64,000 nt of DNA. It comes from Eledone cirrhosa. Its lineage: Eukaryota. The position numbers and the translations under genes were made by a program. Below, piece after piece: positions 2,377 through 31,458 of the stretch. The notes under the pieces are model-generated. The model made no database searches. It saw nothing but the letters and a program-made list of their open reading frames with translations, and was not told the DNA's origin. Where the stretch lies: contig OZ024752.1 of NCBI GenBank assembly GCA_964016885.1, forward strand, positions 23,560,001 through 23,624,000, written 5' to 3'. Each line of letters opens with the position of its first letter. Within the stretch, counting starts at the first letter, position 1.

Positions 2377-2739
2377 ATAGTCCCAGGTCAGTCTGATCGA
2401 GTTGCAGACGTAAGAAACTTCTTAGTGTGGCCTCATAGTAGTAAATTATATTACCCGATTTAGCATCACAAGAGTAGCCCGGTTTAGATGTATCATATAC
2501 CTAGCATACCATATAGACTGTCCCACAGAAGGATCATATGATGAGTAGCGTTGACATGTTACTACTGCTGCTGCTGGACCCAGATCAGATGGTGCCAAGA
2601 AGAGCTGACATTGGACTAGCCTCTACATGCTCAAGATTCCACCCAGGCAGTGTACTTCGATTCCAAACGGGTACGTTAGCTCTTTTACCCCAACCTTTTT
2701 TTAACGATTCTTTTTCTATAACGTCGAATAGATTGCTTT

Positions 2740-3030
2740 GTGTTATTCGTTTCTACTCTTAGCGCTCTGATTTCAAATCTTACCAAGGTTAATTTTTCCT
2801 TTCATTCTTTTGAGGTCGATAAATAAAGTATCAGTCCAGTACTGGGACCGACTTTTTATCTGTATCTCTTTCTCGCTTTGATTCTATCACTCTTTCCTTC
2901 TCTGGAAGAAATTAGCTGTGTTCAGACCTGGATAGAGATGGGCTCTGCAAGGTTTCACATGCCCAACACAGGCTGTATTTCACTACGGCGCCCAACGACT
3001 CTATTAGGAGTTACAGATTCACACACTTCT
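2740..3030 (+). mobile_element. Degenerate tRNA-derived SINE, variant with CT-rich linker and alternative 3' tail
   Basis: B-box-like GATTTCAAATC, core CCTTTCATTCTTTTGAGGTCGATAAATAAAGTATCAG, then tail TCTGGAAGAAATTAGC...GGAGTTACAG also seen at 3915-4050 and (minus) 32735-32835. Confidence 0.65.
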
Positions 3031-3414
3031 ATATATATGAACATTTCAAATTTATAGATACTGTTATTGTTAACATAAGATGGTCGATATGACAAATTCG
3101 TTTTAACATCGTCGGATATTTGTTTCAGGTCTTTGCTTTTTGAGTTCAAATACCACTGAGTTTCACTTTCTTCTTCAGCCTTCTGGGGGTCAATAAAAAA
3201 AAGTACCAACCAAGTGCTGTTGCAACTGTCTATACTCCTATTGTCACATCCTGGGTGCCCCACTGCACCAAGGGCGAGAGGCTATCTGTGTCTGCTCACA
3301 TTTACATGGGCGCTTAAAACCCTTAATGAAATCCTCACTTCACGGTAGTACCAAGTCATACTCGATTATAAGTGACGGCTAAAGGTTTTTTCAAGTTTAT
3401 TATTAGTTTTAAAA

Positions 3415-3632
3415 AGCGGGTTGTCAGTATCGATAGAGCGTCGGACAGTATATTTTGCGGCATAGAATTGCGGCCCTTTGCGTACTGAGTTCAAATCCCG
3501 CCGAGGTTAGCTTTGCCTTTCATCCTCTCGGGGTCGATAAATAAAGAACCAGTAATGCATTGAGGTCGATTTAATCGACCCCCTCCCCCCTTCCAAATTG
3601 CTGGCCTTGTGCCTAAAGTAGAAACAATTATT
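3415..3632 (+). mobile_element. tRNA-derived SINE (octopus-type), near full length
   Basis: B box GAGTTCAAATCCC, core TTTGCCTTTCATCCTCTCGGGGTCGATAAATAAAG, 3' end GGCCTTGTGCCTAAAGTAGAAACAATTATT; more than 10 related copies in the window. Confidence 0.85.
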
Positions 3633-3759
3633 AGTTTAAAAAGTTATACTGACTGGGATTATCTTTGCAATGAGTAAACAAAACCTCCCTCTACGGGAAT
3701 TTGAACAGATAATCTCAAGTAATGAAATGTGTTCTACTTACTATATTACATATATGAGA

Positions 3760-4052
3760 TCTTTTTCATCCGTTTGAGGCCGATAAAAAAGTATCAGTTT
3801 AGTACGGGAGAGGATCAATCCCCCCTCTCTCCCTCTCTCTCTCTCTCTTTCTCACACACACACGCGCGCGCATACACATACATACACACACTTCCATTCT
3901 CCCACTCTCTATCCTTCTCTGGAAGAAATCTGCCATATTCAGACCTGGAGAGGAGATAGGCTCCGCCAGGTTTTTACAAACTGCCCTAGAAACTGTGTAT
4001 ATCAACGCAGCGCCCCTATGACTCCCTCGGGAGTTACGGGACCCTACATACA
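3760..4052 (+). mobile_element. 5'-truncated SINE, alternative-tail variant
   Basis: Core TTTCATCCGTTTGAGGCCGATAAAAAAGTATCAG + CT/CA tract + tail ending GAGTTACGGGACCCTACATACA. Confidence 0.6.
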
Positions 4053-4122
4053 GCGTGTTGTATTTATGAAGTATTTTCTGTCAACTCTCTTGGTGTGCTT
4101 GTTTTTATTATTGGTTGCTGTA

Positions 4123-4730
4123 TGGTGGATTAGCTGTATCGGTTGAGCGTCTGACAATGTACTTTGCGCTATATCGTTATGTCTCTTTACCTTCTCAGTT
4201 CAAATCCCGCCGAAGTTAACTTTTTCTTTCTTCCTCATGAGGTCGATGAAATAAAGTACCAGTAGCGAACTGAGGTCGATTTAATCGACTTTCCTCTTCC
4301 CTTCATAAATGCTGGCCTTGTGCAATTATTAGTTGCTGTGGCGTAATGGACTGGTCGCATCGGTAGAGCGTCCGATATTTATTCTAGCTTTTTACCTTCT
4401 GAATTCAAAGCCCACTATGTCAACTTTGCCTTTCATCATTCTAAAGCCGATAAAGTACAAATCTAGTTCTTGGGTCAATTTAACTCGACTTTCCCACTAT
4501 CTTCAAATTGCTGACCTTGTGCCTATGTTAAAAACCGATATTATTTATAGTTGTTGATAGAGTGTCGGACACAATGCTTTGAAGCATAGAGTTACGTCCC
4601 TTTATGATCTGAGTTCAAATCCCGCTGGGGTTAACTTTGCCTTTCATCCTTACGGGGTCGATAAAATAAAGTACCAGCAATGTACTGGGTAATTGCTGGC
4701 CTTGTGCCAAAAGTAGAAACAATTATTTAT
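4123..4730 (+). mobile_element. Three head-to-tail tRNA-derived SINE copies
   Basis: Three B boxes (about 4197, 4401, 4611), each followed by the conserved core and a CCTTGTGC...ATTATT end. Confidence 0.8.
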
Positions 4731-5238
4731 AGTTGTTGTTTTTGTTGTTCCAAGTCAGCCTTGGTCAAGTAGAGTTATATCAAAGTCATTCCCCCATAAC
4801 CATCCTATCATTGTTTCTTATGGCATAGCCAATACGTCAGGTAAAGTGTAAAATGAGGGGATTTGGCTGTAATATATAGCAGATTGAGAAACTACATAGA
4901 TACAGGAGCTATGTGGTCGGTTGACTTAATAGGAATAGCAGCAGAATCCACGTCAAATCACACCGCCATCGTCATAGATAATGAAAGATAAGGTAATATG
5001 GTTATGGATTCCCTGCAGATAACAAAAAACAAAAAAAAACGGGATGGCCACGGCTGGAATAGCTTTCATCATAGGGCACTCCGAACATGGCTTACCTGTA
5101 ACAACTGCTAATAGACTCATTTGAAATGGAAAGACCAAAAACAATTACTAGAAGGTACTGAATACATCGATACATCGAGCATCAGAAAAGGTGCTAATTT
5201 ATTGAAAAGTGACTCTTGAAGAATAAGGTGAAATTAAA

Positions 5239-8894: not shown

Positions 8895-11814
<2,920 letters not shown>

Positions 11815-11817
<3 letters not shown>

Positions 11818-12645
11818 TCATCATCATCACATCATCATCATCATCATCATCATTTTACGTCCGCTTTTCCTTGCTTGCAAGGGTGGGACGGTGTTATTCA
11901 GCACAGCATCTCTCCACTTTCCACGGTCCTTCGTCATCTCCACCGTGAGCTTCAGCGATCTGTGGTCTGTTCTCACCACCTCCGCCCATGTTTTTCGTGG
12001 TCTACCTCTACCACGTCTTCCTTCAACTGGCATTTCCTGACACTTCTTCACCCACCGGTCATCTTCCATGCGCATCACATGTCCATATCACCGCAGTCTC
12101 CTCTCTCGCACACTACATTCTATCCCTCTCAGACACAGTTTCTATCTCAACACATCCATGCTGGGTCGTTCACGCACATTTACATTGGACATCCAACGGA
12201 GCATGCTTGCTTCATTTCTCTCCAGCCGTCGCATATCCTCTGCAGTTGCTGCCCATGTCTCACTACCATGCAGCATCGCGCTCCTCACACAGGCATCATA
12301 TAACCGGCGTTTCGTACGTAGGGATAAACCCTTCTTCGTCAGCAGAGGAAGCAGCTCCCTAAAATTCTTCCAACCCGTCCTTATTCTAGATACTATGGCC
12401 TTGGAACCCCCCCCCCCCCCTCCCATGCTAATCTGATCTCCGAGGTACCGGAAGCTATCCACCACTTCTATAGCACCCGCCTGCATTTGAAAAATGTGTC
12501 TATCAATGCGACTTCTACTGTCAAATTTCCCTGTACATCTACTGCATAGATATTTCTCCCCACCTGTTAGTTTGCCTGCTATCCCGCTACATCTCTTGTG
12601 TACCCAGGATCTGCATTGTGTGCATTTTCTACTCATCAACACTTG
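11815..12645 (-). mobile_element. RTE-clade LINE 3' fragment with (TGA)n tail
   Basis: VVDSFRYLGD, RLYDACVRSAMLHGSETW, GRRGRGRPRKTW...DRGKWR; tail reads (CAT)n on the plus strand. Confidence 0.88.
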
Positions 12646-13879: not shown

Positions 13880-15780
13880 ACACTTCATAGAGCACGCGCC
13901 TTCTTCGTCACCCCGCCTCCTCGGCTGGTCATGATTAACGACTTCAACAGAATTAGGCAGGATCACGTCCTAGAAACATGTCTCAGACGAGCCCCCTCTA
14001 TCTACCCCTCGTTCACCTTTCGTACGGAAGACCCAGCTCACTCATGGCCGCTGAAAACATGGTTACTTCCGCCTCAGGTGTCCAGCAGAGGGGGGACCCA
14101 CTCGGTGCTCTCCTATTCGCGCTGGCAATCGACGATGTAGCCCGGTCGGTCCGGTCACCCCTCAGGGTCTGGTACATCGACAACGCGACCCTGGGTGGCC
14201 CAGCTGAGACAATAGTTGAAGACCTTCGACAAATCATCTCAATTCTAAACTTCCTTGGACTTGAGATCAAACCAACCAAGTCTGAGGCGACCAACATCAG
14301 CTACAGAGAGGCCGAATTCTGCAAAGCCATACTCTGCTCCCATCCCGTCCTGGCCCAGGCTCGGCTGACACCCAAGGACGCCGCAAGCATTCTCGGCTCC
14401 CCCATTCTCCCGAACGCCAGGAGAGAATGCCAGGAGACCAACCATGTGGATTTGTTCTGATTTGCAGAGAGGCTGCGCCTCGTAGACGCTCATTCTGCGC
14501 TCTTCCTCTTGAGAAACTCCCGAAATTTACGTTCATGCTGCGAGGTGCACCTTGCCACCCTTACGCAGATCTTCTCCAGGAACTTGACGCTACAATTCGA
14601 CGCTGTGTGGAACTCATCTGCAATGTCAGTTTCGACAGCGCAGGCTGGCAACAGGTGACATTCCCAGTGAAGTTCGGTGACCTCAGCCTCCGATCAGCAT
14701 CGGATCTAGCTTTACCTGCCCACTTCTCCTCTATCTCCGCCAGCCGCGCTCTCGTCAGCGAGGTTCTCAGTCAGATGGCCGAATCTGACCTGGCCCCTGA
14801 GATGGAACAAGCTCTGGCCTACTGGACAGGTGAAGGCCTCTCTATCCCCCAGTATACTACGGTCCAACGTAATTGGAACGACATCAATTGCAGGTCCTCT
14901 GTCAGGAGGATCGAGTCTGGCTTGGACCAACACCGCTCACCTGCCCCCGCTCTGTTTCTCAACCCAACAGTGATGCGTGGTTCAATTCGGTGCCCTGCTC
15001 ATCAACCGGTACCCTTTTTGATGATAAGTGCACTCGCATCGGAGTAGCCCTCTGCCTTGGCCTCCGCGTGTATAAGCCACATAAATGCCAATGCAGGGTG
15101 GTTGTTGACAAGTTCGACCTGCACGTCTGTCTTGCCGCCAGAGCGCAGGCCGTTTCCCGCCACACATCGATCTCAATGACATACTGAGAAGTAGCCTGGA
15201 CGCAGCTGACTTTCCATCTCAACTGGAGCCAGCAGGCCTAGACCGCCGAGATGGCAAGCGTCCCAACGGAATAACCCTTTTCCCATTCGAAGAAGGTAGA
15301 TCCCTCATCCAGGACGCCACCTGCTGCGAAACGTTCTCCGCCTCCAACTTGGTCGCTTCGGCCACAAACCCCGGGATCGCGGCCCGCCTCGCAGAAGAGC
15401 GTAAAATAAACAAATACCGGGTTTGTCCGGCGCTTCCTCTTCGCACCGATCGCCGTCGAGACCTCAGGCGTACTTGGACCTCGTACAGCCGAGCCCCTCC
15501 GTAAGATCGGAACGTCTGAGGAGGAAGCCCCGCGAGGTGGGTGCCTGTTGTAGCGGGTGTTGTTGGCCCTTGTCCGCAGGAATGCTTTTGTGGTCTCGTC
15601 CACGTGGCGCAGCACTTCTGCCTCCAGGCCTTAGGCCCAAAGCCCAATCATCCTCCCCCTTCACCCTCCCCTCTCTTCTGCGACACCAGAGTTCTTGCCA
15701 TCCCTTCCCGTTCTTTTTTCTTTCTTTTAGTCTTTGTTCTATTTCCCTATTCTTTTATTTCTTTTGTTTCCTTTTCTTTA
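13880..15780 (+). mobile_element. CRE-like non-LTR retrotransposon (RT + zinc knuckle + RLE), 5'-truncated and frameshifted
   Basis: SASGVQQRGDPLGALLF, WYIDNATLGG, LRLGL-like GVALCLGL-CxC, EPAGLDRRDGKRPNG and DATCCETFS motifs, typical of CRE-clade ORFs. Confidence 0.8.
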
Positions 15781-15814
15781 TTATTATTGCGTTATTATGG
15801 TTGTCATTATTAGT

Positions 15815-17003
15815 TTTTGTGGAATGGACGCGCTCCGATGGTCAGGCGGTCCATTTGCTGTCAACACCCGCTACGTGGAGGGCTGGACATGTCGTGGCTG
15901 ATGATGCGCAAACATGCGCTCAGGCTACGGCATCTCCACCTCTTCCTCGACGGTGATCAGGTGTGGTCGCCGTTTGCTAGACGCGTATTTCCCCAGCTCG
16001 TCTCCTTGACGGAGCTGCAGTACAGGGTCAAGCGAAGACCGAGAAGGAGCACTTGGAAACTGGAATGTCTTCAGGCGCTCACAGCCCTCGACCAATCAGG
16101 CAATACGATCGGTGGAAACTCCGCCTCAGCGTTCTGTAGAGGGTTAGTGGAGGGAAAGAGCGACGACGTCCTTGGGGAGACTCAGGGCGTAGACGAAAAT
16201 CAACTAGCCAATCTCTTCGGGAGAACTTTTGGGCCGGGGCCCATGGACAACTTCCAGAAATGCCTGGCCTGGCAGTGCTACCGAAGGGCCTTGCCAGTTC
16301 GGGATAAACTCTACAGGCATGGAAGTGTCATCAGCCGGGCCTGTCCAAGATGCGCGCAGGGCGACGAAACCGTCCTGCACGCACTCGTCCAGTGTCCGAG
16401 CATACTGACTTGTGGATTTATGTCGAACACCTGCTGTCGCGTGTAGATCGGGTCCGGCTATCACTTGAGTCCATCATGAGGATTGCCCCGCCATCTTCCT
16501 TTAGCCAGGAAGGGCAGGCAGTTTTTATCTGTCTGGTGGCCATGGCGAAAGAGATCGTATGGTGGATGCGCTTGAAAGGGCTGAAGACGAGCACCCTTCG
16601 TTAAGGCCCTAATTAAGTTTTTCAAATTTCATTTGAAAAGAAAAATCAGGGTAGAGTGGGAAGTGCTCTCTCCCCAGGATTTTGTTGAAAGATTGGTGAG
16701 AGAGGCAAGAATGGCCCGAGTGAATGGGCCTGCTCAGGGTATGCGCCTGTAAATTGAAGGTGGAAAACTGGGAGAGGGCACTTGCCCTGGTGGTCAGGGT
16801 CACCGCGGCCTTTTTAATGGGATTTCTCCACGAATGTCCCTCGGGGAATTTTCCTTTATGTCTTTTTTGTCATTTTCTGTGTTTATTTTACTTTACACGC
16901 AAAAATGCCCATTAGTCCCGCCCTGTAACGTCCTGTGCTGTCCTTAATGTTATACTTTATGTCAACCTTCGTGGTTAATAAAGAAAACATTATTATTATT
17001 ATT
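15815..17003 (+). mobile_element. Tx1/L1-clade LINE, 5'-truncated 3' fragment with (ATT)n tail
   Basis: GGLDM, ALPVRDKLYRHG, CPRCAQGDETVLHALVQC zinc finger; ends CCTTCGTGGTTAATAAAGAAAACATTATTATT. Confidence 0.85.
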
Positions 17004-17876
17004 TTTGAGTCTCAGTCATTGATGTTATTTAACTGGAGAGTTTGTTGAAATGAATATCAAGCCGCTACCTGCAGCCTCAGATATTCAGGACGTATCGGAG
17101 GGTTCTTGCTGTTCCCAGCAAGCATGCCTTTTGAAGTGTTCCAAAAAGCGGGGCTGGACTAATTTTCTTTAACCATCCTTGGAAACACTTTGAGATAGTA
17201 CCTAGTGCGCCTATGGCAATCGGGACGACTCTGAGTTCATGGCAGTTCCAAATCCTTTTTACCTCCCACTTTAACTCCTGGTATCGGTTAATTTTCTCCC
17301 TCTCCTTCTCTTGCACTCTCGTGTCAAATGGGCAGGCTACATCTACAATCAGGCACAATCTTTTTTCCTTGTCCAAAACCACCAGGTCAGGTCTATTGTG
17401 TTCCAGTTTCTTGTCCGTCTGTATCCTAAAATCCCACAGCACCTTCACCTGATCATTTTCTATCACCGACTCTGGCTTATGCTCATACCACTTCACAGAA
17501 TGTGGTAAATTGTTTACTTTGCATAGGTGCCAGTGGATCACCCTGGCCATCACATCATATCTCCAGCCTTTATAGTGAGTCTGGGCTAGATGTTTACACT
17601 CGGATACAATGTGAGCCACAGTCTCCTCTCTCTCTCTCCACAGATCCTACACAGTGCGCTAGCCTCCTCCTTGTAAATATGGTGTTTCACCCACTTCGTT
17701 CTGAAGGCCTGCTCTTGCGCAGCCATTAGCATTCCCTCTGTAGCCTTTTTAAGGTCTCATCTTTTTAACCAGTTCCATGTCTGTGGATCTCTAAATTCAG
17801 TTTTCTCAAAGAAGGTACTATGAAGGGATTTTTCATGAAGGTTGCTCTTCCTCCTTGCTGTTATATCCTCCTTGGA

Positions 17877-17877
<1 letters not shown>
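17004..17877 (-). mobile_element. Dong/R4-clade non-LTR retrotransposon 3' fragment (CCHC + RLE)
   Basis: HIVSECKHLA, WDFRIQTD...NRPDLVV, IVDVACPFD, EKINRYQEL, GALG; ends in (TAA)n. Confidence 0.88.
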
Positions 17878-17937
<60 letters not shown>

Positions 17938-17939
<2 letters not shown>

Positions 17940-19755
17940 AGTTGCATTTATCTTGCTTTATGTTCATACGAGTTATCACCAAGTCACAACCAGTGACCCC
18001 AAGAGACAACAAGGTCCACCATGTTCAAGAAAGAACATACATATTCACACATGCATCTTTAGTGTTTAGACTTGTGATGTACTTATATTGACAGAATCTT
18101 CCTTAGTATATGGGCAGTTCCCATTAGTACTATCTTTTGTATTTCTCCTATACGCGGGTTTCCTGGGATCTGCGATAAGTAATCATTAGACCCCTTAGGT
18201 ATCATTCCCAGAGCGCCTACAACCACTGGTATTGTTTTAGTTCTCAATTTCCACATTTTTCCAATTTCTATCTCCAGGTCCTTATACTTGCTCAATTTTT
18301 CAAATGTTTTTATAGATACATTCTTGTCTATTGGAACAGACATATCAATTAGCAGGCATACCCTCTTTTTAAAGTCTTTCAGTATTATACCAGGTCTACT
18401 TGTATCTATTTTTCGGTCTGTTTGGATGCTAAAGTTCTACAAGATGGAGATGTGATCTTTTTCAAGTACGGGAGGTGGTTGATGCTCCCACCAATTCTTT
18501 AGATGGGGCAGGTCAAAATGCTTATACATTATCCAATGTATGTATTGTGCAGCTCTGTCGCGCCTGTTTAGGTATTCGGTTGGAGCTATAGGACTGCACA
18601 TTGAAATTATATGATCAATGGTCTCTAGTTGTTTTTTACACAAACGGCATAATGGGTTGCATCCATTTTTTATTATGTTGGCTTGATATTTTTTGTTGGC
18701 AGACACTGATCTTGTGCTGATATAATCATTCCTTCAGTCTCCGATTTCAGTCCAGAGGATGCTAACCACTGTTGGCATCCTCTGGACTGAAATCGGAGTT
18801 TTGTCAACATCAGGATTGTTAGCTCTTTCTGGGTATTTTCCATACAGAGGCTTTTCTTGCCATTTCTTAGCCAGTTTCTGTAGCAGTTCTTTCTTTGCTT
18901 TTTCTGTGTTTTTCATTTCAGCAGTAAATGGGACTTCTGAACTTTGTAGTCCATTACTGTATCTTTGTGCATCTTTTGTAATGGAGTATGATCTTTTGAT
19001 GCTTTCATGTTTCAAAACGAGTTTGATCATCCAATCATGTGATTCCCTTAGATATGTAAATAATCCAATTGTTGCAGTTTTCAAAGCAATATCTAACTGG
19101 ATTAATCCACGTCCTCCTTCTTTCCTAGGGAGATATATTCTATCTGTATCTGCCTTAGGGTGATGCATTCTGTGCATTGTTAAGAATTTTCTAATTTTTG
19201 TATCGAGCCTACGGATCTCTGTGCTTGACAAGTTGATGACATTGTAATTTTAGGTTACTACTGGTATGGCAAGCGTGTTTATGGCATCGATCCTATTCTT
19301 TGCATTCAATTCCGTTCTTAAGATTGCTCTTACTCTGCAGTAACATTCCTTCCTTATATTTTCCCTCATTGTCGAGTGCTTGATTCCGTCTCCTTCACAA
19401 ACACCTAGATATTTGTAAGTTTCCTCTGGATCAAGTTCTCTTATCACATTCCCCCAATTAACATTAATGTCTGAACTTCTCAGCAGCTTTCCTGGTGAAC
19501 TTTGCTTTGGCGCATTTATCTAGTCCAAACTCCATTTTAATATCATTACTGAACTGCTTCACAGTGGATAATAGCCCTTGCAAATGCTCATCATTTTTTG
19601 CAAATAGATTCAAGTCATCCACGTAGAACAAGTGATTAATGGCTTTGTCATAGACTTTATATCCATGTTGTTTCATTGAGCATTTTACTTAATGGTATAA
19701 GTGCGATGCAGAATAAAAGCGGTGATAAAGAGTCACCCTGAAAAATTCCACAATT
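17938..19755 (-). mobile_element. Second Dong/R4-clade element, 5'-truncated within RT
   Basis: QGDSLSPLLF, HLFYVDDL, YKYLG, RIYLPRKEGGRGL, CRLC..ETIDHIISMC, EKLSKYKDL, GALG; (TAA)20 tail at 17878-17938. Confidence 0.9.
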
Positions 19756-19760
19756 ATTAT

Positions 19761-20121
19761 TGGCAGTATTGGTAGAGGGTTGGATGCCATGCTTTGCAGC
19801 AAAGAGTTACGGCCCTTTGTGGTCCTAGTTCAAATCCTATGTTTTCATCTGCCTGGTGGCAATGGCGAAAGAGATTGTATGGTGGACAAGGTTGAAAGAA
19901 TTGAAGACGGACACTTTCCTCTTGCGCGAATCCCTGATTAACTTTTCAAATTTCACTTGAAGAGGAAATAAAGAAATCATTAATATTATTATTATGAGTT
20001 CAAATCCCGCCGTGGTTAACTTTGCCTTTCATCCTTACGGGGTCGATAAAATAAAGTACCAGTAATACACTGGGATATTGCTGGCCTTGTGCCAAAAGTA
20101 GAAACAATTATTATTATTATT
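19761..20121 (+). mobile_element. tRNA-derived SINE interrupted at its B box by a ~155-bp Tx1 3' fragment
   Basis: Head ends AGTTCAAATCC (~19837); Tx1 fragment + ATT tail; SINE resumes GAGTTCAAATCCCGCC (~19996). Confidence 0.75.
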
Positions 20122-21026
20122 TGGGCACTAGTATCTGTGGAACATCCACCTCGGCGTTCTATAGAGGGCTAGTGGAGGGGAGACCCTGGGCGTCGAAGAC
20201 GATCAGCTGTTCGCTCTCTTCAAGTGAACTTTCAGACCGGGGCCTATGGACAACTTCCAGAAATCTCTGGCCTGACAGTGCTACCGCGGAGCGTCTCCGT
20301 TTCGGGATAAGCTCTACAGGCACGGAGGTGCTGTCAGCCGAGCCTGTCCGAGATGCGCGCAGAGCGACGAAACCGCCCTGCACGCACTCGTTCAGTGCCC
20401 GAGGATTGCTGACTTGTGGAGCTATGTCAAACAGCTGCTGTCGCGTGTAGGACGGATTTGGTTATCGACTGAGTCGATTGTGCAGATAGCCCCGCCATCC
20501 TCCTTTAAAGAGGAGGAAGGGCAGGCAGTTTTCATCTGCCTGGTGGCCATGGCGAAAGAGATTGTGTGGTGGACAAGATTGAAAGGGTTGAAGCGGACAC
20601 TTTCCTCTCCGGCCAATCCCTGATTAACTTTTTCAAGTTTCACTTGAAGAGGAAAATCAGGGTGGAGAGGCAAGTGCTGCCTTCGAGCAAGTTTGTTGAA
20701 AGGTGGGTGAATGTAGCGAGAATGGTCCGAGTGGACGGGACCGCTCTGAGTATGCACCTGTAGACTGAGGAGTGGGAAAAGTGAGAGAAGGCGCTTGCCT
20801 TGGTGGTCAGGGTGCCCGTGGTCTTTTGTGTGGTTTTCACCACGAGTGACCCTCGGAGGTTTCCCCCTTCTTGGGGAATTTTTGTTGCTTGAATTCTTTT
20901 GATTTCTAGCGATTTTGTTATAACCTGTTTACACGACCAAAACCCACTTAGTATCGTCCTGTACTTTTCTGTGCCGTCTCTAATGTTTTTTTTTTTCGTG
21001 TTAGCCCTTGTGGCCAATAAAGAATC

Positions 21027-21062
<36 letters not shown>
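20122..21062 (+). mobile_element. Tx1/L1-clade LINE, 5'-truncated 3' fragment
   Basis: Homologous to 25405-25860 and 16080-16700; ends GCCCTTGTGGCCAATAAAGAATCC(ATT)n. Confidence 0.88.
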
Positions 21063-21063
<1 letters not shown>

Positions 21064-21259
21064 GGGCGGTGGATTAGCAGTATCGGTAGAGAGTCGGACA
21101 CCATGCTTTGCAGCAAAGAGTTATGGCCCTTTATGGAGTGAGTTCAAATCCCGCCGAGGTTAACTTTGCCTTTCATCCTTACGGGGTCGATAAAATAAAG
21201 TACCAGTAATGCACTGGGTAATTGATGACCTTGTGCCAAAAGTAGAAACAATTATTATT
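21063..21259 (+). mobile_element. tRNA-derived SINE, full length
   Basis: GGGCGGTGGATTAGCAGTATCGGTAGAG head, B box GAGTTCAAATCCC, conserved core, AGTAGAAACAATTATTATT end. Confidence 0.88.
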
Positions 21260-24200
21260 GAAGGTGAAGCCACGCTCCTTATCGGCTCCAGTTTTTTTTC
21301 AACAGTATACATCGATGTCAACCGTTCTTAACCTTTTATTCAAGTTTTAAACTTGATAAAAGTTTAGAAGAAGTGACCCACCTAATACAGGGGCTTCACT
21401 CGTAAATAATACGGCACCCCTTTATGGGGTGTCGTATTATGTAAAATTTATTTGAAACAAAATTTCGTTCAAACATGGATAACACAAAAAAGAGAGAGAG
21501 CGCTGTCAGACAACTCAGAGAGAGGGAGACTTTGTCAACATGTCAACAAGACAGCGTTCTAGCGAAGGTGAATATAAAAGAAAATATTACGAAGGAAAAG
21601 AGGAACAGATTTAAAATTACCAAATATTTCTAACACAAACAACACCAACAATATCACCAACAACAACACAATCAATAACAACAGCAACAACAAACATAAC
21701 AGCGGTAAGGTAGAGAACGACAATAACAATGACAATAACAACAACCACAACAACAATAATAGTGGGAACAGCATCAACAAAAACAATAATAATAACAACA
21801 GTAACAGCAGCAACAGTATCAACGAAAACAACAACAATGACAGTAGCGGCAGCAATAGTGGTGCCGCTGAAAAAGGGGCCACTTCTTTTGCAGGTGTGGC
21901 CCGAAATATCGAAACAGTGCTAGTCACAGAGGAGGAGATGGCAGTCGCAAGGGCCATAGTGACAAGAAATGCCAATCGAGACTCCCTGAAATCTCCACCC
22001 GATTTTTTCAAGGAGTCGCAGTTACAAACGGTGACTTACCCCACTGTAAACAAAATATCACATCGGGTGGAGAGAGCCACGGAGGCTCAAATCCAAAAGG
22101 GGTGCGTCTGGGCGCGCAAAAGCCACATCAACAGGCAAAAAATACGCCACAGTAGACGTACTTTTTGCCCCACCTCCCCCAGTAGGCGAAGTATCACTCT
22201 TTGGTAAACCTAAAGAGTGAGGAGATAATTTTGGTGCCCTCCTACTGTGGGCAGAAAATTGGGAGAGAGAACTGGTCAGGTATAGGCATGCAAATGCTAA
22301 TACCAACTGACCAGGAGTGTATCAAGGCCATCCCGGTTAGTAGGAGGGCAACGTCCGTGGCACCCAATCCAAGGCCACGGACAAATAAATCAGCAGCAGC
22401 ATTGGTGGCAACACCAGTAGCTACATTTGTAGTAGCTGCACCAGCAACAAAATCGCTGGAGAGGGCTCCACTACCACCACCAACAGCCGTGGAGAAAACA
22501 CTCCTCCCAGACGCCACGGAATCCGACATGGATTCTGAGGCGGGAGTGAAGTGGCAAACGGTCTGCCACAAAAACATAACAAAAAAGAAGGAACCCCTTG
22601 GCTTCACCCTCCAAAAGCGAAGACAAACAAAGAGGGGTAAAGGCTGCAAGGCGACTCGCAGATACACCACCACCATTACCACCACAAGCATCACCACCAA
22701 CAACCACCACACCACCAGCATCATCACAAACACTAACATCGCAAACACAACATGGAAAACATACCCAACAGCAGCAAAAAGATAACAGCAACAAAACCAA
22801 ACCCCCGCAAAACACTACACAGCCATAAACATGGCAAATAAAGAACTCTTGGAACATATAAAGCAGCACACAGACATTACAGACAAAAATGACTACACTC
22901 CACCAATACCAAGAACATTCCCGAAAAATATAAACATTATTGAAATTAAAATAGAATATTATAAACATATAAAAGAAAAGTTCCCCAACGCAGTTGGAAA
23001 CTTCAGAGGGTCGGTTACCAAGAGGATATACACCGACATCATCTTGGAGATACCCATGGCCAGCCAAAGGGACAGTTCGACTGTCCCTTTCCTATACGAT
23101 CAGGGTAAATGATCCTTTCTCACTTACTCCATTCCTCACCTAACATGGCCTTACTTAGAATAGGCAGTCTAAATGTACGTGACCTGGGGGTCATCTTGGA
23201 AGCAGGGCCACCTGCTTAACGATCTCAGGTAACTAAACAGATGTGGTGGCCATCAGCGAGACCAGAATTTCCGAAGCACGATCTTCGGCGTCTACGATGT
23301 ATACACATCTCCCAGCCGTCCGGGAGCGGGGGGCGGAGTTGCTGTGCTTTTTCGGAGAGGCTTGGATCTCGCCATACGGGGCATCTTCCTGGACCCATAA
23401 GTTAAGTCGGTGGTGCTGGACGTGATCGGCAACGAAGATAACGCTTTCAGGCTAGTAGCCGTCTACGCCCCAACAGGGGCAGGACGGATAGATTTCATCA
23501 GACGTCTAGAGACCTTTCCCGCTCTTTAGTGTTAGTGGGTGACTGGTATCTTAGATGCACGCTTGGATTATGTGGGGCTAGTAAGTAAGGGAGGAGGGTG
23601 CAAAAGACTCAACAACCTACTCAGACGTTTTCCACTGTCTGACGGGTATAACTGGATTATGCGAATGTTCTAATGTGGACATGGGCAAACCTCATCAGGT
23701 CATCCAGATCGTATTTAGATAGGATATTCTCTAGGGAAACAGATAAGGTTAGTGTAGGTTGTCCACAATTTAAAGTAGTCGAATACACGTACCACAAATT
23801 TGTGATCTGCGAAGTTGACTTAGTTAGACTCCATAGGCAAGGACCTGGTTACTGGAAGCTGTTACTCGAAGCCGAGCAGATGTGTGAGGCTTTTAACAAT
23901 ACTTGGCTCAACTGTTTGGGACCGGCGGCGGGCCGGATGGGAGTATGAACTTCAGTGGCTACCTCGAGGGACTGCCGCAGCTCTCGACGACCGCAGCGCA
24001 GTATTGCGAAAGCCGATAACAGCAGGTGAAATACGGGAAGCGATGTCTGACTGCACGAGGGGCAAATCGCCAGTTTTGGATGGTCTGCCCTACGCGCTTT
24101 ATGCGTACATGCCAGACTTGTCCGGCGACCTCTTGGCAGACGTCTACTGTAACTGGCAGCAGAACGGGAGCATTCCCAGTTTTGTGAGCCGGGGAGCGGT

Positions 24201-25885
24201 GGCGCTGTTGAGAAAAGAGCCGAACAAGGGGTACTTTATAGACAACTTCAGCCCCGTAACTCTGTTAAACGCAAATTTCAAGATTTTGGCCAAGGTGTTA
24301 GCAACGAGATCGGTGCTTGTCGTCGGTAATCTGGTGGGAGAGGCGCAGACATGCACCATTACAGACAGATCCATCCACGACAACCTCCACTTCATGCGAT
24401 ACATCATAGATAGGTGGTTAAGAAACCTGGCACGGGTTGGGCCCTGATGAACTTGTATCAATCTAAGGCATTTGGTCAATCTAAGGCATTTTATCAATCT
24501 AAGACCATCGGTACCTGGCGGCTGTCCTCGAGGCGGCCGGTTTTCAGGGGTTGGATCGCTGTGATGCACAGCGACATCTGCTCAGTTGGGAAGGTGAACT
24601 GTCATCTGTCACAGCTGTTCAGCATCATGCGCTCGGTCCACCAAAGTTGTCCCCTCTCGTCGCTCTTATACGTATTGGCCTAGAGCCGTTACTACACAGA
24701 TTGGAGGCGATGAGATGCGTCCTACGCGAACTGGGATGTGGGAGATCCGTATCGGCTTACGCCGATGACGTCACCGTGGTGGTGTCAAGTACCGGTTATG
24801 TACAGATGCTTGGCACCGCTCTCAAGGAATATGAAGGAGTGACAGGAGGAAAGGAAAACCAGGAAAAGTCGGTGGGCTTGCAGCTCGGTACCTGAAGAGG
24901 CAAGTCCATGCCACCCGACAGCGTCGTGGGGCGCTGGACGGAAGGACCGGTTAAATTTCTCGGGATCTGGTTCAGTCCGGACCTCCAGATGGAGAAAAAC
25001 TAGAGCGAGGTGACGAGCAGGGTGACCTCTCTCATCCACAAATGGGCCGAGAGGAAGCTATCCCTGAAAGGTCGGGCAGAGGTGGTGAATGCGTTCATCG
25101 CATCCGTCATCTGCTACCGCCTAACCGTTGTGCCTTGCCCCGGCCCAACTCTGACGATCCATCTGCTGTCAACACGCGTTGCGTGGGGGACTGGGCGTGC
25201 TGTGGCTGATGATGCACAAACACGCGCTGAGGCTGCGACATCTCGGGTGCTTCCTTGGCGTTGAATAGTTGTGGTCACCGTTTGCCAGACGTGTTTTTCC
25301 CCAGCTCGTCTCATTAACGGAGCTGCAGTCCTGGATCAGGGAAAGACCGAGGGATAGCGCTTGGAAGCTGGAATGTCTCCAAGCGCTCACAGCCTTCTAC
25401 CAACTGGGCACTAGTATCGGTGGAACATCCACCTCAGCGTTCTATAGAGGCCTGGTGGAGGGGAAGAATAACGACTTTCTCGGGGAGACCCTGGGCGTCG
25501 AAGATAATCAGCGGTTCGCTTTCTTCAAGAGAACTTTTAGCCCAGGCCTATCGACAACTCCCAGAAATCCCTGACCTGGCAGTGCTACCAGGGAGCGTTG
25601 CCGGTTTAAGATAAGCTCTCTAGGCACGGAAGTGTCGTCAGCCGAACAAGTCCGAGATGCACACAGGGCGATGAAACCTTTGTGCAACGCACTCCTTCAG
25701 TGTCCGAGCATTGTTAAATTGTGGTGCTATGTTTTCATCTGCCTGGTGGCAATGGCGAAAGAGATTGTATGGTGGACAAGGTTGAAAGAATTTAAGACGG
25801 ATACTTTCCTCTTCGGCGAATCCCTGATTAACTTTTCAAATTTCACTTGAAGAGGAAATAAAGAAATCATAATTATTATTATTAT
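21260..25885 (+). mobile_element. Near full-length Tx1/L1-clade LINE, pseudogenised ORF1 (Asn/Thr-rich) and ORF2 (APE + RT + zinc finger)
   Basis: ORF2 starts ~23145 MALLRIGSLNV; VAISET, YLDRIF, GPGYWKL, SPVLDGLP, RSIHDNL, SAYADDVTV; many stops and frameshifts; 3' UTR deleted. Confidence 0.9.
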
Positions 25886-26011
25886 GAGTTCAAATCCCGC
25901 CGTGGTTAACTTTGTCTTTCATCCTTACGGGGTCGATAAAATAAAGTACCAGTAATGTACCGGGTAATTGCTGGCTTTGTGCCAAAAGTAGAAACAATTA
26001 TTATTATTATT
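25886..26011 (+). mobile_element. 5'-truncated tRNA-derived SINE starting at the B box
   Basis: GAGTTCAAATCCCGCCGTGG...AGTAGAAACAATTATTATT. Confidence 0.85.
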
Positions 26012-29000
26012 GGTTATTGGTGTGATCGGACGTCGTTTTGCTCGCTCCCGTAAGTTTCTTTATTTACCTGTCATAAATCATTTATTGTAAATTTTTTTTT
26101 GTCGTGTAAGGAGCATAAGCCCTGTGACGCCCCTCCCCCCAACTTTGTCTGACGGCGGTTTAAATGTTGAGGCAAATAACGCTGCCCTTCCACAGCAAAT
26201 ATGAAAACAACGCCACATTAGGCAGTATCGCCAACAGCAGCACCACCTACAACAGCAATAATGAGAGCACCAACAACAGTGAAAATTCAAATATCAAGAA
26301 AAATGACAACACCAATAACAGCAGCAACAACACCAACAGCAACTACACCAACAAGAACAACGACAACAACGGCAACAACAACAGCACCAACGACAACAAC
26401 AAGAACACTTTCACTGCGGCAGCAGACAAAGAGAGGCCATGCCTCAGCATGGACCTCTCAAATAAAGATGAAAAGTTGACACAGGCCTGGAAGCTCATCA
26501 AGCAAGAGCAAACCTGAGCAAACTTAACTGTCCTGGTAGAAGCTATTGAAGCACAGAACAGTGCATTACATATGCATCTCAGCAGAAACAAAGAAGGCAG
26601 CTTTAATTGCAGACAGATGTTGAAGCCGTGCTGAGGTGCATCAGGGATGAAACCCAATACATAGCGAGGGGCAGACAATACGGCACCATTTCGGTGCTGT
26701 TTAAGTAAAGCCCTCGCTATGAAACATGCTATGACCCCTTGCAAAACCAGCAAGGTCATAATGTACCCCTCCCACATGGGAAAAAGAACAGCCCGTCTCC
26801 ACGTTCCCAGGATCCCACCAGGACTTGACATGTGGTGGCTTCTGGGATGCATGATTGTGGAGGGGGAGGATACCGTCTCGATAGAAGTTACAAGAACTGT
26901 TAGAGAAGATGGTCCGGGGTTGACCTGGAGATACTTCTCCAGATCAGGCCGGAGAATGTCAAAACAATCCCGGACCACATCCGTCTTCAGAACGGGGCGG
27001 TAATTTCACATCATGACAGAAGCAAAAAGCCGCATTGTTTCGTTTGCGGGAAAAGAACCCATTTGCAGAGCCTTCTGCCCTCAACTGCTGAAAGATGCAA
27101 GGGGTCGAAGGGCTCCACTACTGCCGTCGCCGGGGCGAGGACCACCACCAACACAAACACTGGCAAAACCACCAGCAACAACACCAATAGAAACATAACC
27201 ACCAACATTGACCGCCCAGGAGGGAAACGAGGAAAGTTGTCAGATTCCCCCTCCTCCCCAAAATACACACATCAATAAAAACATAAACACACACACACAC
27301 ACATAGACACACTTACAGACACAGGCCCCCTCATCTTCCAGTAGTGAAGATGAAGGAAAACTAAAATCCTCAAAAATACAAAAAATGCAAGCACCACCCA
27401 CGCAAACATCTCCCCAACAACACCAACATCAACACCGCCAACACCAGCATCCTCCAAATGCAAGCAACCTAAACAGACGCAAGAACAAATACACACACAA
27501 ACATCTGAAACCACAGAACCGCACTCACAACAAACACAGTCACAACCGAAACAACACCATCAAAACCATCATCACCACATTCACCCAAATAAATAAAATC
27601 ACACCACCAAAATATATAAAACTTCGTGCTTGTCAGCAGGGCCAACAGGGAGCTGATGGCTCTCGTAGCACGAAGTAAAGAAATCCAAGATTTTAAATCG
27701 AGCACATTTCGTGTGCCAGAAGATTTGTTTCTGGTGCGAAAGTCGCTCGATTTCTACAAAGGGATTCGAGACAGCTTTCCTCGGGACGTGGGAACTCCGA
27801 ACGTAAAACCCGCATCAAGACTTTTAAAGGGGTTTCCAAAAGAAACCCCACCAACTATGGAGGTCGAACCACCCGACCTTCACAAGAACCCGGGAGGTAA
27901 GTAAACCTTTTTTCTCTCTTTTAGCCTGCCAACATGACCATATTAAGAGTAGGAAGTTTAAATGTTCGAGGCCTGGGGTTGCCCTGGAAGTAGCGTCACC
28001 TGCTCAACGACTTCAGGTCTCTAGAAATGGATGTAATTGCCGTCAGCGAGACCAGGATTTCCGACACGCGCGCACTAGCCCCCGTTTTCGACGGCTATCA
28101 GATCTTCGCATGTTAGTCGGCCTGGAATGGGAGGTGGGGTGGCAGTGCTGTTTAGGAAAGGCCTGGATCTCGAGGTAAGGTCGATCTTCCGGGACCCCGA
28201 CGGTAAGTTGGTGGTCCTGGATGTGGACAATAGCGAAGGTGGTTCCTTTAGACTGGTGGACGTCTACGCCCCTACCGGGGCCGGACGGCCGGACTTCTTT
28301 AGATGCCTGGAAGCACTAGATTTCCCTAATGCGCCGGTGTGGACCTGGACTAACCGCATATGGTCATCTAGATCATATATAGACAGGATATTCACTCGGA
28401 AAATAGATAGAAATAGTGTAAGCTGTCCACGTTTTAAAACGGTCACCTATTCAGATCACAAGTTTGTGATTTGCATGGTCGACCTAGGTAAGATGCATAG
28501 GTTAGGACCTGGTTACTGGAAGCTGAACATGTCATTTCCGACACATAAGGCTTACAGGGACCGAGTCAATAATTTAGTTAAGCAAAAGTTGATAGGGGTC
28601 TCGTCAACAACAGATGGTTGGGGGCTCTCAAAAGAGAGATTAGAGTAATTTTGAAGTACCGTTAGAGAAAAATAGAAAGAAGGGGAGCTGGTAGATAAGT
28701 TAGACGAGGCTATTTGTAGTGGCAGTGCTAACGGAGAGAATGGCATTAGACCATTTCTTCAATGCGAAACACGAAACTTGCATTGTCAGAGCTAAGGCGC
28801 GTGTTCTGAGAAACGAGGGAATCACGAGACAGACACGTGCTGAGCGATTCCAGGTGGATGTGTGAGGCCTTTCGCCAGCATTTTGCTCGGTTGTTCGGGG
28901 GAAGTGGCGGGTCAGAGACGGTGGCGGACTTCAGTCTCTACCTCGATGGCTTACCATAACTCTCGACGGCCGATGCTGAGCGCTGCGAAAGGCCGATAAC

Positions 29001-31237
29001 TTCAGCCGAAATTCAGGATGCCCTTGTTGGTTGCATGAGGCGCATGTCACCCGGTTTGGATGGTCTGCCCTACGAGCTTTACGTAAATATGCCAGACTTG
29101 TTCTCCGATCTCCTCGAAACGCTCTACTGCAACTGGAAGCAGAACGGGAGTATTCCCAGTTCTGTGAGCCGGGGCGTAGTGACGCTGATAAGGAAAGGCG
29201 AAAACAAGAGGGACACATTAGATAATTTCAGGCCCATAACTCAGCTCAACACAGAGTTTAAGATTTTGGCCAAGTTGTTAGCGAAGAGGTTGGCGCTTGT
29301 CGTCGAGGATTTGATTGGGGAGGCGCAAACTTGCGCAATCCCGACCAGGTCCATACACGACAACCTCCACCTCATGCGATACATCATAGAGAGGGTAGGG
29401 TGTAAACCTGGCTTCGGTGATATTCTGATCAATTAAGATCAATCGGAAGCATTGGATAGGGTCGACCATCGGTACCTGGAGGCTGTTCTCAAGGCAACTG
29501 GCTTCGGCCCCGTCTTCAGAAGCTGGATCGCTGCAATGCACAGCGGCATCTGCTCGGTGGTCAAAGTTAATGGCCACCTCTCGGAACCGTTTCAGATCTC
29601 GCGATCGGTCCGTCAAGGGTGCCCTCTCTCCTCCCTTCTGTACGTATTGACTCTCGAGACTTTACTGCGGAAACTGGAGCTGTTGCAGGGCATTCCGTTC
29701 GAACCGGAACGTGGAAAGGCTGTGTCGGTTTATGCGGGCGACATCACCGTGATGGTGTCGGACACATCGGAAATCGAAGTGGTCGGCAACTTATTGGAGG
29801 AATATGAAAGTTTGACGGGAGCGAAACCCAACCAGGAAAAGTCGGTGGGCTTGCAGCTCGGCGCCTGGAGAGGAAAGTCCATGCCGTCCAACAGCGTCAT
29901 TGGGCGCTGGACGGACGGACCGGTAAAGTTGTTCGGTGTTTGGTTCGGTGTTTGACGGGCAGGGTAGCCAGTCTCACCAAGAAATAGACTGCGAGGAAGC
30001 TATCACTGAAAGGTCGGGCGAAGGTGGTGAACGCATACATCACGTCCGTCATCTACTACCACCTGATCGTAGTCCCTTGCCCCCGTCCGCGGCTCACCAA
30101 CATGGAACGGCTCCTCTTAAAATTCTTGTGGAGGGGACAGGTTCCGTTGGTGAGGCGGTCCATCTGCAGCCAGCACCCTCTACTTGGAGGGCTGGGCATG
30201 CCGTGGCTAATGATGCATAGACATGCGCTGAGGCTGCGGAAGCTCCAGGTATTCTGCCTAAACGGGGAACAGGTGTGGTAGCCATTTGTCAGACTGGCCT
30301 TTCCGCAGCTCGTCTCTTTGACTGAGCTGCAGTCCTGGGTCAAGAAGAGACCATGACTGGGCGACTGGGCTCTGGGCGTCGACGAAGGCGAACTAACCAG
30401 TCTGTTCCGGAGGACTCTTCGACCCGGGGACAATGGAAAACTTCCAAAAATCCCTCGCTTGACAGTGCTACCGGGGGGGGGGGGTGCACTGCCGGTTCGA
30501 GATAAACTCTACAGGCATGGAAGTGCTGTCGGACGAACCTGCCGGAGATGCGCGCAGAGCGACGAAACCGTTCAGCACGCACTCGTCCAGTGTCGGTGGA
30601 GTTATGTCGAACAGCTGTTGTCGCCTGTAGAACGGATCGGGCTATCGGCTGAGTCCATAGTGAAGATCGACCCGCCGCCTTCTTTTGGCCAGAAAGGGCA
30701 GGCAATTTTCCTCTGTCTGGTGGCAGTTGCGAAAGAGGTTGTATGGTCGACCAGGCTGAAAGGACTGAAGACAGACACTTTTCTCTTCGGCCAATCCCTC
30801 ATCAACTTTTTCCAGTTTCACTTGGAAAGGAAGGTGAGGGTGGAGAGAGAAGTGCTGCCCTCCTTTACATTTGCTGAAAGGTGGGTGGATGTGGCCTGAA
30901 TGGCCCGTGTGAGTGGGCTTACTTTGATTATGTGCCTGTAGGTTGGTGAATTTGAGGAGGAGAGGGGTACCCTTCCCGGGTGCTCTCGAAGCGTTGGGTG
31001 GTTCAGGATTGGTGGGGTACCTGATCAACCCTGGGTGGTTACCCCCCCCCCTATTGGGGAATTTTTCATTGTTGTATTTTTCCTGTTATTTTGTTATTGT
31101 TATTTATATTTTTACACGTTATATATGTAAACCCCCTGTGTCCCTGTCTAGTGTATTAAACCCCCACTGACCCTGTCTAGTGTATCGTTCCCTATATGTC
31201 ACGCCCTTGTGGCCAATAAATGAAACCATTATTATTA
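26012..31237 (+). mobile_element. Near full-length Tx1/L1-clade LINE (second family), pseudogenised
   Basis: ORF1 remnants end EVEPPDLHKNPGGK* (27904); ORF2 starts ~27934 MTILRVGSLNVRG; SDHKFV, SPGLDGLP, NFRPITQLN, VRQGCPLS, CRRCAQSDETVQHALVQC; ends CCCTTGTGGCCAATAAATGAAACC(ATT)n. Confidence 0.92.
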
Positions 31238-31458
31238 GGGCCGTGGATTGTCAGAATCATTAGAGTGTTGGAGAAAATACTTTGTGGCATTTATTACGGC
31301 CCTTTACGTTGTGAGTTCAAATCCCGCCGAGGTTAGCTTTGCCTTTCATCCTTACGGGGTCGATAAAATAAAGTACTAGTAATGCACTGGGTCGATTTAA
31401 TCGACTTTCCCCTCCCCCAAAATTGCTCGCCTTGTGCCTATAGTAGAAATCATTATTA
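31238..31458 (+). mobile_element. tRNA-derived SINE, full length
   Basis: Head GGGCCGTGGATTGTCAGAATC, B box, core, CCTTGTGCCTATAGTAGAAATCATTATT end. Confidence 0.88.

What the first reader, a model, noticed from the sequence alone, without database searches (positions are those of the whole stretch)
15778..31458. 16-kb retrotransposon nest joined by (ATT)n at nearly every junction
Seen order: Tx1(+), Dong(-), Dong(-), SINE/Tx1(+), Tx1(+), SINE(+), Tx1(+), SINE(+), Tx1(+), SINE(+), with ATT repeats at ~15778, 16989, 17878, 19753, 19978, 20107, 21028, 21251, 25868, 25997, 31228 and 31452. Tx1 and SINE are always plus, Dong always minus. Known: Dong/R4 elements target (TAA)n, and several Tx1 families are sequence-specific (Kibi, Koshi, Keno, Dewa). 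Inference: (ATT)n-specific Tx1 families whose tails regenerate the target, creating a self-feeding insertion sink.
Basis: partly seen in the sequence, partly recalled or inferred. Interest (0 to 1): 0.72.

Follow-up and report, generated by a model that had tools for sequence, protein, structure and literature searches.

The report
ATT-targeting Tx1, SINE and Dong nest
This is a real pile-up of old jumping genes joined by ATT repeats, and across the genome several Tx1-like retrotransposon families sit at ATT runs; they likely cut there, likely also move a very abundant short element that shares their 3' hairpin, and would thereby keep making new landing sites.

Summary
Observation confirmed: order, strands and ATT junctions are as described (11 ATT runs, about 1.3 expected), with one correction: 19838-20121 is a local copy of 25727-26011, not a separate insertion. 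The pattern is genome-wide. 315 of 324 heads of a young intact Tx1-like family abut exactly (ATT)4; 22 of 42 position-sampled full-length copies follow another Tx1 or SINE tail; neighbours behind 90 Tx1 tails are same-strand Tx1/SINE (34) or opposite-strand Dong (14), never the reverse. Refinements: full-length copies carry some 5' ATT themselves; only 12 of 36 truncated junctions show ATTAT (background 5.5%; Dong control 5 of 12); all 8 tail-anchored duplications start with ATTAT, so targets are regenerated at least partly by duplication rather than tail addition. The SINE (over 92,000 copies) inserts at short C|ATTAT sites with 10-20 bp duplications and shares a CUUGU-loop 3' hairpin with the Tx1 families, likely a stringent Tx1-SINE pair. 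Microsatellite-targeting Tx1 is known (TC, TTC, TTCC); an ATT target and a Tx1-tailed animal SINE were not found in nine literature searches; Repbase could not be checked. New variant of a known kind.

The parts
13957..15790 (+). Upstream RLE-type non-LTR fragment (CRE-like by recalled motifs) whose 3' end holds the first ATT run (15778-15788)
   Evidence: RVT_1 hit at 13957-14457; translation shows RT and restriction-like endonuclease motifs; clade name recalled, not tested
15813..16988 (+). Tx1-like copy A, 5' truncated, ends in hairpin tail
   Evidence: zf-RVT; 88-92% to other family-A copies, which start matching at 15813-15814
16989..17004 (+). (ATT)5 shared by Tx1 A tail and Dong1 tail
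17005..17877 (-). Dong/R4-type 3' fragment (CCHC and PD..D endonuclease region)
   Evidence: translation; weak REase Pfam hits E 0.05-0.08; 5,316 exact tail matches genome-wide
17878..17938 (+). (ATT)20
17939..19752 (-). Second Dong/R4-type fragment, different family, with a local fold-back at 18734-18803
19753..19837 (+). (ATT)3 then SINE head (A/B-box motifs)
19838..20121 (+). Local 95% copy of 25727-26011 (deleted Tx1 C end + ATT + SINE 3' part + (ATT)5)
20122..21027 (+). Tx1-like copy B, 5' truncated directly behind the SINE's ATT
21028..21062 (+). (ATT)11
21063..21259 (+). Full SINE with hairpin tail and (ATT)3
21260..25885 (+). Tx1-like copy C: intact head, degenerate ORF1/ORF2, two 3' deletions, ATT run 25869-25885
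25886..26011 (+). 5' truncated SINE and (ATT)5
26012..31237 (+). Tx1-like copy D: head, APE, RT, zf-RVT, hairpin tail, (ATT)3
   Evidence: Pfam Exo_endo_phos, RVT_1, zf-RVT
31238..31458 (+). SINE of the longer subfamily, ends in ATTATTA

Best explanation
The stretch is a chain of four Tx1-like LINE copies, SINE copies and two opposite-strand Dong fragments, each joined to the next by an ATT run, and it likely grew by repeated insertion into those runs. Shown: genome-wide, Tx1-like heads and tails abut in-phase ATT runs, neighbours keep a fixed polarity, resolvable target-site duplications begin with ATTAT, and young copies lie behind more diverged elements. Inferred mechanism: the Tx1 APE endonuclease nicks the AAT strand at the start of an ATTAT(T) site; the RNA's AUU end pairs with the freed strand to prime reverse transcription, which fixes orientation; a second cut 10-20 bp on duplicates the site; for full-length copies a 5' (ATT)n carried on the RNA likely anneals to the upstream run. 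Each insertion leaves a run at both ends, so one target becomes two. The LINE itself prefers longer runs; the SINE, likely moved in trans through a shared CUUGU-loop 3' hairpin, accepts any short C|ATTAT site. Dong reads the same runs from the other strand as (TAA)n and so lands tail-to-tail.
For: 315 of 324 young-family heads preceded by (ATT)4; 42 of 42 position-sampled and 19 of 19 intact full-length copies; 22 of those 42 follow a Tx1 or SINE tail of varied families against 5 of 33 background (ATT)>=3 runs (Fisher p 0.0014); behind 90 tails: 21 Tx1+, 13 SINE+, 14 Dong-, 2 RTE-, 40 none, 0 reversed; 8 of 8 tail-anchored duplications start ATTAT; 12 of 36 truncated junctions have ATTAT within 22 nt against 5.5% (p 2.8e-7); 70 of 90 Tx1 3' ends have >=3 perfect units against 7 of 64 SINEs and 33 of 1250 background ATTAT sites; SINEs that received a Tx1 sit in (ATT)3 runs in 11 of 20 cases against 6 of 64 sampled; in 17 of 17 measurable cases the upstream element has a lower nearest-copy identity than the young copy; 26 of 31 SINE duplications start ATTAT, C before them in 21 of 31; shared hairpin; 30 of 30 Dong tails in ATT runs, 17 abutting Tx1/SINE tails.
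Against: 24 of 36 truncated Tx1 junctions have no ATTAT within 22 nt and nearly all of these show no duplication, including one young copy (L286); these may be later deletions (the known TAA-targeter Dong gives 7 of 12 without ATT) but off-target insertion is not excluded. The 5' ATT of full-length copies is partly element-borne (L108), so head counts are not pure target evidence. One truncated copy (L276) has a 37-nt duplicate 346 bp downstream that does not start with ATTAT. In long runs tail addition and target length cannot be told apart. Nearest-copy identities depend on how densely each family was sampled. No biochemistry.
Confidence: 0.8

Rival explanations
1. The Tx1-like elements insert with little sequence preference and bring ATT with them at both ends; only Dong and the SINE target the runs afterwards, which builds the nest.
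For: Full-length copies carry 5' ATT of their own (L108); 24 of 36 truncated junctions lack ATTAT.
Against: Young copies (99.2-100% to nearest copy) lie directly behind older Tx1/SINE tails; Tx1 follows Tx1 tails of other families in 16 of 42 cases; truncated copies with a duplication always start it at ATTAT.
Confidence: 0.08
2. Targeting is real but the SINE is moved by another LINE (CR1, L2, RTE or Dong), and its likeness to the Tx1 tail is chance or a relic.
For: The shared part is only about 28 nt; against the window's diverged copy A it is weak (349 of 20,000 random windows score as high); SINE and LINE differ in run length used; other LINE tails were not surveyed genome-wide.
Against: SINE tail against copies B and D: 0 and 3 of 20,000 random windows; same loop, same distance to ATT, stem kept with different pairs; same polarity and same 10-20 bp ATTAT-starting duplications; of 378 hairpin-plus-ATTAT sites in the loci held, 211 were Tx1, 160 SINE, none another LINE (loci are biased to these elements). 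Dong has the opposite polarity.
Confidence: 0.2
3. The chain arose mainly by tandem duplication, read-through co-transposition or ATT-mediated recombination, not by separate insertions.
For: 19838-20121 is such a local copy; arrays of near-identical young copies exist, e.g. ten heads at 5.8 kb spacing.
Against: The window's four Tx1 copies belong to different families (70-78% alike); upstream neighbours of each family's heads vary from locus to locus.
Confidence: 0.05

Closest known systems
Kibi (TC)n, Koshi (TTC)n and crocodilian (TTCC)n/(TTTC)n Tx1 families (PMC4494074, passages read; PMC3812793, passages read)
   Same: APE-type Tx1/L1-group LINE inserted into a microsatellite in a fixed orientation
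   Different: Target is ATT; host is an invertebrate; at least five families share the target; kinship to Kibi/Koshi not tested (no reference sequences available)
Dong (R4 clade; Dong, DongAg, DongBg), TAA-microsatellite specific (PMC3812793 passage); Dong-R4 and L1-Tx1 listed as recently active in Octopus vulgaris (PMC13282606 passages)
   Same: The two minus-strand fragments behave exactly so: 30 of 30 sampled tails lie in ATT/TAA runs
   Different: Here Dong shares its target with an unrelated APE-type group on the opposite strand
SINEU / Tx1-Mar of crocodilians (PMC4494074, section 16 and passages read)
   Same: A SINE inferred to be moved by Tx1 from shared target preference
   Different: SINEU has snRNA heads and poly(A) tails and the evidence given is target and 5' head sharing; here a tRNA-type SINE shares a 3' hairpin and an ATT end
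Stringent L1-clade SINE/LINE pairs of maize (ZmSINE2/3) and Chlamydomonas (SINEX-3) (PMC3747384 passages)
   Same: Shared 3' stem-loop with variable stem and conserved loop
   Different: That review counts only 3 SINEs with L1-clade tails, none in animals; those end in poly(A)
Keno (U2 snRNA-specific Tx1)
   Same: Keno-type loci L404 and L408 (U2 directly behind the poly(A)) belong to the group of metagenome loci with the highest RT identity to the young family (38-40.5%)
   Different: Different target and tail; not sister in the tree (unresolved fork, support 86)

Membership tests
L1/Tx1 group non-LTR retrotransposon | ORF2 with N-terminal APE, RT and C-terminal zinc finger | tested here: met
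   Intact 1150-aa ORF2 of the young family: Exo_endo_phos, RVT_1, zf-RVT above cut-off; best solved relative human L1 ORF2, E 9e-57, R2 far lower
L1/Tx1 group non-LTR retrotransposon | Target-site duplications of about 10-20 bp | tested here: met
   9-20 bp exact in resolvable copies, one 37 nt inside a run
Tx1 clade | ORF1 with CCHC zinc knuckle (type I ORF1, PMC5203782) | tested here: met
   CX2CX4HX4C motif in ORF1; no Pfam family hit for ORF1, so no RRM shown
Tx1 clade | RT phylogeny groups with named Tx1 elements | tested here: inconclusive
   Own families monophyletic (100), sister to unnamed proteins P0002-P0014 (100); Keno-type clade in an unresolved fork; no named L1, Tx1L, Kibi or Koshi rows
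Microsatellite-specific Tx1 (Kibi/Koshi type) | More than 20% of flanks are the microsatellite (criterion of PMC4494074) | tested here: met
   315 of 324 heads; 70 of 90 tails
Microsatellite-specific Tx1 (Kibi/Koshi type) | Target is (TC)n or (TTC)n; descent from the Kibi/Koshi lineage | tested here: not met
   Target is ATT; descent untested
Dong/R4 | C-terminal CCHC plus restriction-like endonuclease; flanked by TAA | tested here: met
   Translations, flanks; clade name rests on these features and recall, no tree built
tRNA-derived SINE | Pol III A/B boxes, high copy number, duplications, LINE-like tail | tested here: inconclusive
   A/B-box-like motifs seen directly; 92,832 exact tail matches; duplications; no tRNA match by ARAGORN or Rfam; identity with published octopus SINEs OK/OR1/OR2 not testable
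Stringent SINE-LINE pair | Shared 3' stem-loop required for mobilisation | not testable with these tools
   Sharing and stem conservation shown; requirement needs a retrotransposition assay

The most novel reading that the evidence does not exclude
A lineage of ATT-specific Tx1 LINEs is the engine of one of the most abundant SINEs of this (probably octopus) genome through a stringent 3' hairpin, the first such Tx1-tailed SINE in an animal; together with opposite-strand Dong it forms a three-party community in which every insertion doubles the shared target, and cis (long ATT run) and trans (short C|ATTAT) insertions by one enzyme differ in stringency.
Probability: 0.55. Interest if true: 0.68.

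Novelty: new variant of a known kind. Interest (0 to 1): 0.52.

Why it matters
It adds ATT to the known targets of Tx1 endonucleases and gives hundreds of near-identical intact copies for testing how an APE domain reads a microsatellite. It names a likely driver for a SINE with over 92,000 copies and suggests that stringent 3' recognition survives in an animal L1/Tx1-group lineage, which bears on whether relaxed poly(A) recognition of mammalian L1 is derived. It explains multi-kilobase retroelement chains as a self-made safe harbour shared by two unrelated endonuclease types.

Tried and rejected
Idea that 19762-20121 is a composite SINE family or a Tx1 inserted into the SINE B-box with a duplication: rejected, the unit is local and carries copy C's deletion junction. 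First neighbour classification was spoiled by repeat-contaminated library entries and was redone; its two unknown families proved to be Tx1 heads. Laying reads to find empty alleles or confirm junctions: uninformative, swamped by repeats; small-share runs are no evidence. Name look-ups for relatives gave no useful names. Nine metagenome relatives inspected showed no ATT-flanked ends. Rfam and ARAGORN found no tRNA head; weak miRNA matches at 18734-18803 are the fold-back in Dong2. Rebuilding empty sites from SINE duplications did not give run lengths because those SINEs themselves sit in ATT runs. Look-ups of earlier findings returned nothing. Supplements of PMC4494074 were not available, so its full list of Tx1 targets was not seen. 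A further set of 20 position-ordered copies could not be fetched, so the truncated sample stays at 36.
Full report
Setting. The window is G000:C12:23560001-23624000 of a 3.0-Gb assembly.

Observation. The 12 ATT sites are present; 11 have three or more units on the + strand against one AAT run, while 200 kb of evenly spaced background gives 33 runs per 400 kb of strand, about 1.3 expected (p 1.3e-7). Self-comparison, Pfam and translation give: Tx1 A (15813-16988, +), Dong1 (-), Dong2 (-), SINE head, a 285-bp copy of 25727-26011, Tx1 B, SINE, Tx1 C, SINE 3' part, Tx1 D, SINE. The four Tx1 copies are 70-78% alike, so they are different families. The segment 19838-20121 has no other full match among the 40 candidates scored genome-wide than 25727-26011 and carries copy C's deletion junction: a local copy. 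The run at 15778 belongs to the end of an upstream RLE-type element and is about 25 bp from Tx1 A's truncation point. Reads from four runs could not bridge internal junctions.

Genome-wide ends. Exact patterns count 6,680 Tx1 tails, 875 tails of the D/young group, 92,832 SINE tails and 5,316 Dong1 tails. A young family has an intact 1150-aa ORF2 and copies about 99.5% alike. 315 of 324 of its heads are preceded by exactly (ATT)4 in phase. ATT also abuts the heads in all rows for two other head types (30 loci each, some duplicated), 20 of 20 full-length family-B copies among 39 examined, 19 of 19 intact young copies and 42 of 42 full-length copies among 60 tails taken in chromosome order (60 of the first 64 listed; four skipped as already held or tandem). 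28 of 30 family-B loci end in ATT.

Target or cargo? L108 shows a 19-bp duplication followed by further ATT units before the head, so full-length elements carry some 5' ATT, and head counts alone do not prove targeting. Independent tests: (i) 22 of the 42 full-length copies follow a Tx1 (16) or SINE (6) tail of varied families, against 5 of 33 background (ATT)>=3 runs and 16 of 335 (ATT)>=2 runs (p 0.0014 and 2e-14). (ii) For 20 young copies with an upstream element, 17 upstream elements had a measurable nearest copy; all 17 were less alike to it than the young copy to its own (99.2-100%), 11 at 97.3% or less; sampling depth differs between families. (iii) Truncated junctions: 8 of 28 (9 rearranged or interrupted copies left out) plus 4 of 8 scored by eye (of 15 rows, 5 internal deletions, 1 other family and 1 duplicate left out) have ATTAT within 22 nt, 12 of 36 against 5.5% (p 2.8e-7). 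The other 24 nearly all show no duplication; Dong, a known TAA targeter, gives 5 of 12 with ATT by a like count, so later deletion is a fair reading, but off-target events are not excluded (young L286). (iv) All 8 tail-anchored duplications (L093, L096, L108, L189, L303, L309, L310, L319) start with ATTAT, and the tail begins at the duplication with no added units; L276 has a distant 37-nt duplicate that does not fit. (v) 70 of 90 Tx1 3' ends have three or more perfect units, against 7 of 64 SINEs and 33 of 1250 background ATTAT sites; SINEs that have a Tx1 behind them are themselves in (ATT)3 runs in 11 of 20 cases by eye against 6 of 64. The LINE therefore prefers longer runs.

Polarity and clustering. 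Behind 90 position-ordered Tx1 tails: 21 Tx1 and 13 SINE on the same strand, 14 Dong and 2 RTE-type ends on the opposite strand, 40 unassigned, none reversed (families X3 and X5 there are Tx1 heads). 30 of 30 Dong1 tails lie in ATT runs, 17 against Tx1/SINE tails. Among 100 ordered Tx1 tails, 21 of 99 neighbouring pairs are under 15 kb apart (2.3 expected), 16 on the same strand: nests are common.

The SINE. Of 64 copies (30 pattern loci and 20 background stretches), 31 have a 10-20 bp duplication anchored at the tail, 26 starting ATTAT and four one base off; C precedes it in 21 of 31 (C is 18% of the background); mismatched pairs give 27 of 1972. Its last 27 nt align with Tx1 B and D tails better than all but 0 and 3 of 20,000 random genomic windows, but only weakly with the diverged copy A (349). 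With the loop CTTGT fixed by my search, the three flanking pairs are kept in 96-98% of 206 Tx1 tails and 95-97% of 165 SINE tails, with family-level pair swaps (G-C against A-T at pair 3; C-G against G-C at pair 2); the fourth pair is kept in only 74% and 64%. These are a few independent events, not hundreds. Minimum-energy folding showed the hairpin in 4 of 7 window tails. Of 378 such hairpin-plus-ATTAT sites in the loci held, 211 were Tx1, 160 SINE, 7 unassigned, none another LINE (biased sample).

Mechanism (inferred from target-primed reverse transcription, established knowledge). Nick on the AAT strand at the start of ATTAT(T); pairing with the RNA's AUU end fixes orientation; second cut 10-20 bp downstream duplicates the site; a 5' ATT leader likely anneals upstream, which would explain the seamless head junctions and the high share of full-length copies. 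One run becomes two. Dong uses the same run from the other strand.

Classification. ORF2 has APE, RT and zf-RVT, best solved relative human L1 ORF2; ORF1 has a CCHC knuckle, as PMC5203782 (passages) describes for Tx1-type ORF1. In a 97-row RT tree the own families form one clade (100), sister to unnamed proteins of about 40% identity; Keno-type loci with U2 behind their tails fall in an unresolved fork. No named Tx1 sequences were available.

Literature. Passages read: PMC4494074 (also section 16; supplements not available), PMC3812793, PMC3747384, PMC13282606, PMC9115989, PMC4758252, PMC5203782, PMC3531059, PMC8967140, PMC4824008. Known Tx1 microsatellite targets there are TC, TTC, TTCC/TTTC; TAA is ascribed to Dong; only three SINEs with L1-clade tails are counted, none animal. 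Nine searches showed no ATT-specific Tx1 or Tx1-tailed cephalopod SINE; Kojima and Fujiwara 2004, Ohshima and Okada 1994 and Repbase were not seen and may hold either.

Verdict. New variant of a known kind; interest 0.52.

Noticed in passing
G000:C1:423367685-423420172: Ten young-family heads at about 5.8 kb spacing on one strand: a head-to-tail array of intact elements; shorter arrays at C1:181.41 Mb, C2:264.52 Mb and elsewhere.
   Followed up: no
window 18734-18803: Near-perfect fold-back (inverted duplication) inside Dong2, absent from other copies seen; gives spurious miRNA matches.
   Followed up: partly
window 13957-15790: Degenerate RLE-type non-LTR element on +, CRE-like by recalled motifs, ending in a pyrimidine-rich stretch and the first ATT run.
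   Followed up: partly
L404:4675-4885, L408:5815-5977: Metagenome contigs with Tx1-like elements inserted into U2 snRNA genes (Keno type).
   Followed up: partly
window 50825-55788: 16 copies of a 310-bp unit at 99% identity between very long TA arrays.
   Followed up: no
window 2717-4748: Another cluster of same-strand SINE copies of this family with ATT-like joints.
   Followed up: no
L271-L330: The young family is rarely truncated: 22 of 24 position-sampled copies are full length, unusual for LINEs.
   Followed up: partly
L276, L167, L323 (5' region of head family X3): A CTTGT-loop hairpin followed by ATTATT also lies inside the 5' untranslated region of one Tx1 family.
   Followed up: no
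window 9689-12303: Separate RT-coding element upstream of the nest (RVT_1, E 3e-24).
   Followed up: no
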